Below the pieces are notes generated by a model. The model did no database searches and was not told the origin of the DNA. It saw only the letters and a list, made by a program, of their open reading frames with translations. The position numbers and the translations under genes were made by a program. Positions 2,161 to 2,813 of a stretch of DNA of 10,556 bases are shown piece by piece; position 1 is the first letter of the stretch; each line of letters starts with the position of its first letter. This DNA is from a virus (Duplodnaviria; Heunggongvirae; Uroviricota; Caudoviricetes). Location: IMG/VR virus record IMGVR_UViG_2529292905_000030, one strand, 5' to 3'.

Positions 2161-2754
2161 ATGCTTATTGGCTATGTCCGCGTATCAACAAATGACCAGA
2201 ATACGGAATTGCAGCGTAACGCGCTGGAGTGTGCAGGATGTGAGCTGATTTTTGAGGATAAAATCAGCGGCACGAAGTCCGACAGGCCGGGACTGAAAAA
2301 ACTGCTCAGGACATTATCGGAGGGGGATACACTGGTAGTCTGGAAGCTGGACCGGCTGGGGCGTAGTATGCGGCATCTGGTCATTCTGGTTGAGGAGCTG
2401 CGCGAACGCGGCATTAATTTTCGCAGCCTGACGGATGCCATTGATACCAGCACGCCGATGGGACGTTTTTTCTTTCATGTGATGGGGGCCCTGGCTGAAA
2501 TGGAACGAGAACTCATTGTCGAGCGGACTCGGGCCGGGCTGGAAGCGGCCAGAGCTAAAGGTCGTATTGGTGGCAGACGTCCTAAACTCACCACGAGTGA
2601 GTGGGAGCAGGCCGGGCGTTTGCTGGCTGCAGGGGAGTCACGTCAACGCGTGGCACTGATTTTTGATATTGGTCTGTCCACGCTCTATAAAAAATTTCCC
2701 TCATCAGCGACAAAGAATAAATTGTGTCATCCCTTAGCCAACCGGGACAAATAG
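2161..2754 (+). CDS. Serine site-specific DNA invertase (Gin/Pin/Cin/Hin family)
   Basis: 197-aa protein beginning MLIGYVRVSTNDQNT (catalytic Ser at residue 9), with VVWKLDRLGRS, GRFFFHVMGALAEMERELI and a C-terminal HTH (...ALIFDIGLSTLYKK). Near-identical over most of its length to Gin/Pin as recalled. RBS GAGGA at 2150-2154. Confidence 0.9.
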   Translation: MLIGYVRVSTNDQNTELQRNALECAGCELIFEDKISGTKSDRPGLKKLLRTLSEGDTLVVWKLDRLGRSMRHLVILVEELRERGINFRSLTDAIDTSTPMGRFFFHVMGALAEMERELIVERTRAGLEAARAKGRIGGRRPKLTTSEWEQAGRLLAAGESRQRVALIFDIGLSTLYKKFPSSATKNKLCHPLANRDK

Positions 2755-2813
2755 CCTGACATCTCCGGCACAACTGAAAATATCACTCACCCATTAACCA
2801 CGGAGTTAAACGG

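What the first reader, a model, noticed from the sequence alone, without database searches (positions are those of the whole stretch)
2700..2813. Divergent invertase C-terminal tail, and no clear Ogr-type late promoter upstream of FI
After the conserved HTH (...STLYKKFP) the invertase ends with SSATKNKLCHPLANRDK, which does not resemble the Gin/Pin/Cin C-termini I recall. This suggests the cassette junction with the P2 backbone lies inside the last codons. P2 late promoters carry an Ogr-binding dyad (TGT-N12-ACA, about -55). By eye I find only a wider-spaced dyad (TGTGTCA...GGGACA, 2723-2749) overlapping the invertase 3' end. Insertion of the cassette may have remodelled the FI promoter (P_F), or FI may be transcribed from an overlapping or upstream promoter.
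Basis: inference. Interest (0 to 1): 0.4.

Follow-up and report, generated by a model that had tools for sequence, protein, structure and literature searches.

The report
Invertase gene end overlaps intact P2 late promoter
The odd tail of the tail-fibre invertase arises because the gene runs ten codons into the binding site of the normal, fully intact phage P2 late promoter for the tail-sheath operon, an ordinary arrangement shared by hundreds of E. coli prophages.

Summary
The window is the right arm of a P2-like prophage. A Gin-family invertase (2161-2754) sits 59 nt upstream of the tail-sheath gene FI (2814).

The inference that an Ogr-type promoter is missing is wrong.
- Window 2734-2813 matches phage P2 at 78 of 80 bases with no indels. 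This covers the right part of P2's annotated P_F activator site, the -10 region and the mapped start (window 2788-2790).
- The left half-site is kept in register. TGT(2723)-N12-CCA(2740) has the same spacing as in P2's own P_F and P_O/P_P sites.
- Ogr, encoded at 9198-9416, is 100% identical to P2 Ogr.

The cassette/backbone junction lies at 2715-2722. The last ten codons plus the stop (LCHPLANRDK*) are therefore the activator site read in frame.

The "LC....N.DK*" motif recurs in invertase tails from other genera. Invertase-free Yersinia prophages carry the same DNA as non-coding promoter sequence, so the conservation is on the DNA, not the protein.

The junction occurs in 580 of 5,426 complete E. 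coli genomes and in phage pro483. It is ordinary and already known in kind, and of low interest.

The parts
2161..2754 (+). Gin/Pin/Cin-family serine DNA invertase gene (197 aa)
   Evidence: ORF. Pfam Resolvase (3e-52) plus HTH_7 (8.6e-13). Mu Gin (PDB 3uj3) E=1.1e-94 over residues 1-182.
2701..2721 (+). Cassette-derived part of the tail (SSATKNK), resembling the short ASTKS tails of related invertases
   Evidence: Homology to other invertase genes ends at 2699-2714. Tails are listed.
2715..2722 (.). Junction between the invertase cassette and the P2-type backbone
   Evidence: Invertase-side homology ends by 2714. Backbone-side homology to fiAA91-ss, D8 and about 1,000 invertase-free E. coli prophages starts at 2722.
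2722..2754 (+). Backbone-derived last ten codons plus stop (LCHPLANRDK*), which are the upstream activating region of P_F read in frame. The TAG overlaps the probable -35 region.
   Evidence: Alignments. The same DNA is non-coding in P2, fiAA91-ss, D8 and the Yersinia prophages L215/L216.
2717..2745 (+). Equivalent of the P2 GenBank feature 'activator binding site; activation of pF promoter' (P2 17555-17583)
   Evidence: Feature table. The offset of 14838 is fixed by the gap-free alignment. 19 of 29 bases are identical, including TTGTG and TTAGCCAACCGG.
2723..2740 (+). TGT-N12-CCA partial dyad (Ogr half-sites), centred about -57 from the P2-mapped start
   Evidence: Same register as P2 P_F (TGT-GCTGTCGATTAG-CCA) and P_O/P_P (TGT-GTCAGTGATAAG-CCA). 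Related phages have TGT-N12-ACA at the same distance from the sheath ATG.
2776..2781 (+). Probable -10 hexamer GAAAAT (inferred)
   Evidence: Conserved GA[A/C]AAT lies 7 nt upstream of the P2-mapped start in all P_F variants. No sigma-70 consensus promoter is found in 1900-3000, as expected for an activator-dependent promoter.
2788..2790 (+). Equivalent of the mapped P2 F-operon transcription start (P2 17626-17628)
   Evidence: P2 feature table. Gap-free alignment.
2814..4004 (+). FI tail sheath gene, first gene of the F operon (FI, FII, E, E', T, U, D follow to 9116)
   Evidence: ORFs. Window 2734-9508 is 96.9% identical to P2 17572-24342.
9198..9416 (+). ogr, the cognate late-gene activator (72 aa, Cys4 zinc finger)
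   Evidence: 72 of 72 residues identical to P2 Ogr.
215..241 (.). Left crossover site of the invertible tail-fibre segment
   Evidence: 27-nt inverted repeat with 2079-2105, 81% complementary.
2079..2105 (.). Right crossover site, just upstream of the invertase gene

Best explanation
A tail-fibre inversion cassette occupies the variable Z/fun hotspot of a P2-type prophage, between the tail-fibre genes and FI. It carries alternative H/G segments, crossover sites and a Gin-family invertase. Its right-hand recombination junction (2715-2722) lies directly against the upstream edge of the Ogr-binding site of the late promoter P_F. The invertase ORF has no stop of its own before the junction. Translation therefore continues through the activator site for ten codons (LCHPLANRDK) to a TAG at 2752-2754, which belongs to the conserved ...GACAAATAG of P_F. 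P_F itself is intact: TGT-N12-CCA half-sites, weak -35, GAAAAT -10, a start at 2788-2790, a Shine-Dalgarno sequence and the FI ATG. The FI-D operon should therefore be switched on by the prophage's own Ogr exactly as in P2. The unusual tail is a by-product of gene/promoter overlap, and its apparent conservation reflects selection on the DNA as a protein-binding site. Shown here: the homology, the junction position, the shared register and the non-coding occurrence of the same sequence. Inferred: Ogr binding, start-site use in this prophage, and neutrality of the tail for invertase function.
For: - P2 record AF063097 annotates the P_F activator site at 17555-17583, the start at 17626-17628 and FI at 17652. 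The gap-free alignment puts these at window 2717-2745, 2788-2790 and 2814, with 78 of 80 identities over 2734-2813.
- The left half TTGTGTCA is identical to the left half of P2's P_O/P_P site. TGT-N12-CCA is shared by P_F, P_O/P_P and the window.
- The consensus TTGTG-N10-RCCARC-N3-GAYAAATAG holds in invertase-bearing loci from E. coli, [Enterobacter] lignolyticus, Atlantibacter and Citrobacter, and in invertase-free P2, fiAA91-ss, D8, E. ruysiae and Yersinia.
- The non-coding Yersinia sequence would read LCQTLTNPDK* in that frame. This is nearly the same as the real invertase tails LCQTQTNPDK and LCKTQTNPDK.
- Tails after ...FP in the 120 closest homologues run from 1 to 29 residues with no family consensus.
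- Ogr is 100% identical to P2 Ogr.
- The same junction is found in 580 of 5,426 complete E. coli genomes, in 23 of 116 sampled IMG/VR P_F loci, and in phage pro483 at 98.8% identity.
- The literature says the Z/fun hotspot of P2-like phages often carries a DNA invertase (bioRxiv 10.1101/2024.10.15.618418).
Against: - The left part of the annotated site differs from P2 at 10 of 29 positions. No binding or transcription data exist for this variant.
- The right half-site is CCA rather than the textbook ACA, although this is also true of P2's own P_F and P_O/P_P.
- The motif alone is not statistically distinctive.
- The primary papers on P_F deletion and footprinting were not available to read.
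- A protein-level role for the tail cannot be excluded by sequence alone.
Confidence: 0.88

Rival explanations
1. Insertion of the cassette destroyed or remodelled P_F, so FI is transcribed from another promoter, for example by read-through from the invertase promoter or from the V operon.
For: No terminator-like structure lies between the invertase stop and FI. Invertase-free relatives carry a hairpin plus T-run immediately upstream of the activator site: 61 of 93 IMG/VR loci, and a 9-bp stem in fiAA91-ss. Some read-through into FI is therefore plausible. Tail-fibre segments in P2-like prophages do invert in lysogen cultures, so the invertase is expressed there (PMC4272514).
Against: Every mapped P_F element is present in register with P2, the activator is identical, and the arrangement is maintained in hundreds of genomes and in a viable phage, pro483. 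Read-through could add to Ogr-dependent initiation but need not replace it.
Confidence: 0.04
2. The extended tail is a selected protein feature of this invertase subfamily, for example extra DNA contacts next to the helix-turn-helix. The motif LC....N.DK would then be conserved for protein function.
For: The motif recurs in invertases from several genera whose tail-coding DNA upstream of it has diverged.
Against: The conserved residues map exactly onto nucleotides that are equally conserved where the sequence is non-coding, in P2, fiAA91-ss, D8 and Yersinia. Other Peduoviridae lineages place the invertase stop 13-60 nt upstream of the activator site and have 3-8 residue tails. Family tails are highly variable.
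Confidence: 0.05
3. The overlap is a regulatory coupling. Ogr and RNA polymerase bound at P_F would block or truncate invertase transcripts late in infection, freezing tail-fibre orientation. Alternatively, invertase transcription would modulate P_F.
For: There is physical overlap of the invertase 3' end with the -66 to -35 region of P_F. Invertase genes abut the sheath promoter in several independent Peduoviridae lineages.
Against: There is no direct evidence. Adjacency is explained simply by the hotspot's right boundary being the first essential element, the activator site. In other lineages the genes do not overlap the site.
Confidence: 0.05

Closest known systems
Bacteriophage P2 late promoter P_F (GenBank AF063097: activator site 17555-17583, start 17626-17628)
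   Same: Core promoter, start region, Shine-Dalgarno sequence and FI start match at 78 of 80 bases with no indels. The TGT-N12-CCA register is the same, and the Ogr activator is identical.
   Different: Ten of the 29 annotated activator-site bases differ, all in the left part. This part looks more like P2's P_O/P_P site and the fiAA91-ss type of P_F. Upstream, P2 has non-coding DNA and Z/fun, whereas here the site lies inside the 3' end of an invertase ORF.
Escherichia phage pro483 (KR073661 / NC_028943) and related prophages such as the one in E. coli W
   Same: Same order of invertase, 59-nt spacer and sheath gene. 98.8% identical over 2650-2900, with a 197-aa invertase carrying the same kind of tail.
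   Different: Only point differences, for example G/A at 2737 (Ala/Thr) and T/C at 2783.
Mu Gin and the Gin/Pin/Cin/Hin family of tail-fibre and flagellar invertases
   Same: Catalytic resolvase domain and HTH_7. Aligns to Gin over residues 1-182 at E=1e-94. Flanking inverted crossover sites around alternative tail-fibre segments.
   Different: The residues after ...YKKFP are unrelated to Gin's AKRAHIENDDRIN. Ten of them are encoded by a promoter element of the neighbouring operon.
Invertase-to-sheath junctions in other Peduoviridae lineages (sheath starting MAQDYHH..., loci L038, L040, L048, L055)
   Same: The invertase is the last gene of the hotspot, and no terminator was noticed in the short gap before the sheath promoter (by eye; not scanned). 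That promoter has a canonical TGT-N12-ACA about 92 nt from the sheath ATG.
   Different: The invertase stop lies 13-60 nt upstream of the dyad. Tails are short (3-8 residues) and there is no coding/promoter overlap.

Membership tests
P2-type Ogr-dependent late promoter (P_F) | Partial dyad of TGT-N12-ACA type centred near -55 | tested here: met
   TGT(2723-2725)-N12-CCA(2738-2740), centre about -57 from the P2-mapped start. The half-sites and spacing are the same as P2's own P_F and P_O/P_P. The consensus is cited in PMC3931495.
P2-type Ogr-dependent late promoter (P_F) | Homology and colinearity with the mapped P2 P_F core promoter and start site | tested here: met
   2734-2813 against P2 17572-17651: 78 of 80 identical, no gaps.
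P2-type Ogr-dependent late promoter (P_F) | Poor match to the sigma-70 consensus (activator dependence) | tested here: met
   No sigma-70 consensus promoter in 1900-3000. The best -35 candidate, TAGCCT, matches 3 of 6 by inspection.
P2-type Ogr-dependent late promoter (P_F) | Cognate Cys4 zinc-finger activator encoded by the element | tested here: met
   ogr at 9198-9416, 72 of 72 residues identical to P2 Ogr.
P2-type Ogr-dependent late promoter (P_F) | Ogr-dependent transcription start in vivo, and activator footprint | not testable with these tools
   Needs 5'-RACE or RNA-seq and footprinting.
Gin/Pin/Cin/Hin serine DNA invertases | N-terminal resolvase catalytic domain with the active-site serine, plus a C-terminal HTH_7 | tested here: met
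   PF00239 at 3e-52 (residues 3-135) and PF02796 at 8.6e-13 (residues 138-181). The YVRVSTNDQ motif is present.
Gin/Pin/Cin/Hin serine DNA invertases | Close sequence similarity to a characterised member | tested here: met
   Mu Gin 3uj3, E=1.1e-94 over residues 1-182.
Gin/Pin/Cin/Hin serine DNA invertases | Inverted crossover sites flanking an invertible segment with alternative tail-fibre ends | tested here: met
   Inverted repeat 215-241 / 2079-2105. Opposed tail-fibre and assembly ORFs at 190-1337 (+) and 1309-2133 (-).
Gin/Pin/Cin/Hin serine DNA invertases | Fis-dependent recombinational enhancer in the 5' part of the invertase gene | not tested
   Not examined, as it is not relevant to the finding.
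   This is not a family feature. Tails of the 120 closest homologues range from 1 to 29 residues with many unrelated sequences. A divergent tail therefore does not argue against membership.

The most novel reading that the evidence does not exclude
The overlap of the invertase 3' end with the P_F activator site, together with the loss of the hairpin terminator that precedes P_F in invertase-free relatives, functionally couples the two units. One version is that invertase-promoter read-through gives Ogr-independent basal expression of sheath and tube genes in lysogens. The other is that Ogr/RNA polymerase occupancy at P_F shuts off full-length invertase mRNA late in infection, fixing tail-fibre orientation during virion assembly.
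Probability: 0.08. Interest if true: 0.35.

Novelty: already known. Interest (0 to 1): 0.12.

Why it matters
It matters mainly as a clarification. A feature that looked like a damaged or missing late promoter is the standard P2 P_F promoter. An apparently novel, conserved protein tail is promoter DNA read in frame.

There are two useful by-products. First, the right-hand boundary of the P2 Z/fun accessory-gene hotspot is defined to within a few bases as the upstream edge of the Ogr site. Second, it is a cautionary example for annotation: conserved C-terminal peptide motifs can reflect constraint on an overlapping DNA-binding site rather than on the protein.

Tried and rejected
- Motif counting. 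TGT-N12-MCA occurs 5 times in the window against 10.4 expected, so it was rejected as evidence. I relied on homology and register instead.
- Pattern scan of one genome per species for the activator-site consensus. It gave only 6 hits. Three were chance matches in Acidobacteriota coding DNA. Three were invertase-free P2-like prophages, which served as non-coding controls but not for breadth.
- Primary literature on P_F (Julien and Calendar 1995, PMC177091; the P2 review, PMC4836473) is not held. My recollection that 5' deletions between about -69 and -64 inactivate P_F would fit TGT at -66 to -64, but it remains unverified.
- RNA folding of 2690-2830 showed no significant structure (z=-1.56) and no terminator. 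The terminator scan found none between the invertase stop and FI.
- A first regular expression for the activator site used the wrong spacer (N11 instead of N10) and matched nothing. This was corrected.
- Classifying loci by a strict HTH motif miscalled two truncated invertase remnants (L196, L205) as invertase-free. tblastn fixed this.
- I considered whether the T at 2783 improves the -10 hexamer. It was rejected because the conserved hexamer is GAAAAT at 2776-2781, and 2783 is a polymorphic position (T, C or A) downstream of it.

Full report
**What is in the window.** The ORF map and a whole-window comparison with phage P2 show the right arm of a P2-like (Peduovirus) prophage.
- Tail-fibre H C-terminus and an assembly gene lie at 190-1337 (+).
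- An opposed alternative set lies at 1309-2133 (-).
- A serine invertase lies at 2161-2754 (+).
- FI (2814-4004), FII, E/E', T, U, D and ogr follow.
- Window 2734-9508 is 96.9% identical to P2 17572-24342.
- A 27-nt inverted repeat (215-241 / 2079-2105) marks the crossover sites of the invertible segment.
- The host gene at the right end is fieF.

**Checking the observation.**
- It has Resolvase plus HTH_7 domains. It aligns to Mu Gin (PDB 3uj3) at E=1.1e-94, but only over residues 1-182, so the tails do not align.
- The TGT...ACA elements are at the stated coordinates.
- The sequence facts are therefore right.

**The promoter is intact.** GenBank record AF063097 for P2 annotates three features: "activator binding site; activation of pF promoter" at 17555-17583, the F-operon start at 17626-17628, and FI at 17652.
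- The alignment of window 2660-2830 with P2 has no gaps from the activator site to FI. These features therefore map to window 2717-2745, 2788-2790 and 2814.
- From 2734 to 2813 only two bases differ, at 2770 and 2783.
- Within the 29-nt annotated site, 19 bases are identical, including TTGTG and TTAGCCAACCGG.
- P2's own P_F does not have a perfect TGT-N12-ACA. It has TGT-GCTGTCGATTAG-CCA, and the shared P_O/P_P site has TGT-GTCAGTGATAAG-CCA.
- The window has TGT-GTCATCCCTTAG-CCA in the same register. Its left half, TTGTGTCA, is identical to that of P_O/P_P.
It is the P_F element itself.
- Related Peduoviridae with a different sheath gene carry a perfect TGT-N12-ACA 92 nt from the sheath ATG. 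In the window the distance is 91 nt.
- The activator is present: ogr at 9198-9416 encodes a protein 72/72 identical to P2 Ogr.
- No sigma-70 consensus promoter is found in 1900-3000, which fits an activator-dependent promoter.
- The bare motif is not statistically informative. The case rests on homology and position.

**Where the junction is.**
- From the invertase side, similarity to other invertase genes ends at 2699-2714.
- From the backbone side, invertase-free P2-like phages (fiAA91-ss, D8) and about a thousand E. coli prophages match from 2722. P2 matches from 2734.
- The junction therefore lies at 2715-2722.
- Position 2722 starts a codon: SSATKNK | LCHPLANRDK*.
- The last ten codons and the stop are backbone DNA, namely the activator site and the conserved GACAAATAG, whose TAG lies in the probable -35 region.
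- In invertase-free relatives, a hairpin followed by a T-run sits immediately upstream of the site. fiAA91-ss has a 9-bp stem, and 61 of 93 IMG/VR loci carry the signature.
- In the window the invertase 3' end replaces that hairpin. No terminator separates the invertase from FI.

**Why the tail looks conserved.**
- Among the 120 closest homologues, tails after ...FP range from 1 to 29 residues and are mostly unrelated.
- One group shares LC....N.DK*: this E. coli type, [Enterobacter] lignolyticus (LCHTPTNSDK), Atlantibacter (LCKTQTNPDK) and Citrobacter (LCQTQTNPDK).
- Their loci all have the invertase 58-59 nt upstream of a P2-type sheath gene.
- The DNA follows the consensus TTGTG-N10-RCCARC-N3-GAYAAATAG.
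- The same consensus holds where the DNA is non-coding: P2, fiAA91-ss, D8, E. ruysiae and two Yersinia prophages.
- The Yersinia non-coding site would translate in that frame as LCQTLTNPDK*.
- The motif is therefore a shadow of the activator site, not evidence of protein-level selection.
- In other Peduoviridae lineages the invertase stops 13-60 nt before the dyad and has a 3-8 residue tail.

**How common and how known.**
- The junction covers at least 80% of the query in 580 of 5,426 complete E. coli genomes.
- It occurs in 23 of 116 P2-type P_F loci sampled from IMG/VR.
- It occurs in phage pro483 at 98.8% identity.
- The literature already notes that the Z/fun hotspot of P2-like phages often carries a DNA invertase with adjacent inversions (bioRxiv 10.1101/2024.10.15.618418).
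- The literature also shows that such loci invert in lysogen cultures (PMC4272514).

**Mechanism.** The cassette occupies the accessory-gene hotspot. The right boundary of that hotspot is set by the first essential element downstream, the Ogr site. The invertase ORF lost or lacked its own stop at the junction and reads on to the first in-frame stop, inside the promoter. After induction, Ogr should bind 2720-2745 and recruit RNA polymerase to start at about 2788-2790, as in P2. Homology, register and junction are shown here. Binding, start-site use and neutrality of the tail are inferred.

**Rivals.** Three were considered: a remodelled promoter, a functional tail, and regulatory coupling through read-through or occlusion. 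None is excluded by experiment, but each has little support.

**Verdict.** The junction idea is supported. The feature is ordinary and already known in kind. The only mildly new point is the explicit recognition that the invertase tail is the P_F activator site read in frame.

Noticed in passing
window 2783 (also 2770): The only differences from P2 between the activator site and FI. Position 2783 is polymorphic among otherwise near-identical prophages: T in 8, C in 9 and A in 2 of 21 invertase-bearing IMG/VR loci. It lies just downstream of the probable -10 hexamer GAAAAT (2776-2781), so it probably has little effect.
   Followed up: partly
L004 1468-1498 (fiAA91-ss); L214-L216; absent from window 2690-2721: Invertase-free P2-like phages carry a strong hairpin plus T-run (for example AGGCGGGCAGATTGCCCGCCT TTTCTTT) ending a few bases upstream of the P_F activator site. 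In the window the invertase 3' end replaces it, so nothing insulates FI from invertase transcription.
   Followed up: partly
L010 89-885: A metagenomic invertase has the tail ...ALCPQIAPDG, whose DNA contains TGTGCCCACAAATAGCC. This looks like a collapsed relic of the P2-type activator site. The invertase sits 190 nt upstream of a different sheath gene (MAQDYHH...) that has its own perfect TGT-N12-ACA. This suggests the invertase moved between Peduoviridae backbones and carried a promoter fragment with it.
   Followed up: no
L196 and L205 (IMG/VR), 200 nt upstream of FI: Deletion derivatives retain only the last 50 or so codons of the invertase, with FP changed to FA, and the same junction with P_F. 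The N-terminal part and the invertible segment are gone.
   Followed up: partly
window 2122-2150: A terminator-like hairpin plus T-run (AACTGGCATCATCCCCGGTT TTTATTC) lies between the right crossover site and the invertase start. It might stop V-operon transcripts that run through the invertible segment. The invertase promoter was not located.
   Followed up: no
window 9417-9660: The prophage right end. The ogr terminator hairpin lies at about 9429-9450, and P2 homology ends at 9508. A second hairpin plus T-run lies at about 9541-9574, followed by the host gene fieF (NCBIfam PRK09509, 1.4e-186). A 100%-identical invertase/FI junction occurs in E. coli E308 in a prophage next to pflB instead, so closely related prophages use different attachment sites.
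   Followed up: partly
L217 2417-3051, 6432-7024, 7238-7498 (E. coli E308): In that related prophage the baseplate V gene and the inverted alternative tail-fibre genes are annotated as frameshifted or partial pseudogenes. Some carriers of this junction are therefore decaying prophages.
   Followed up: no
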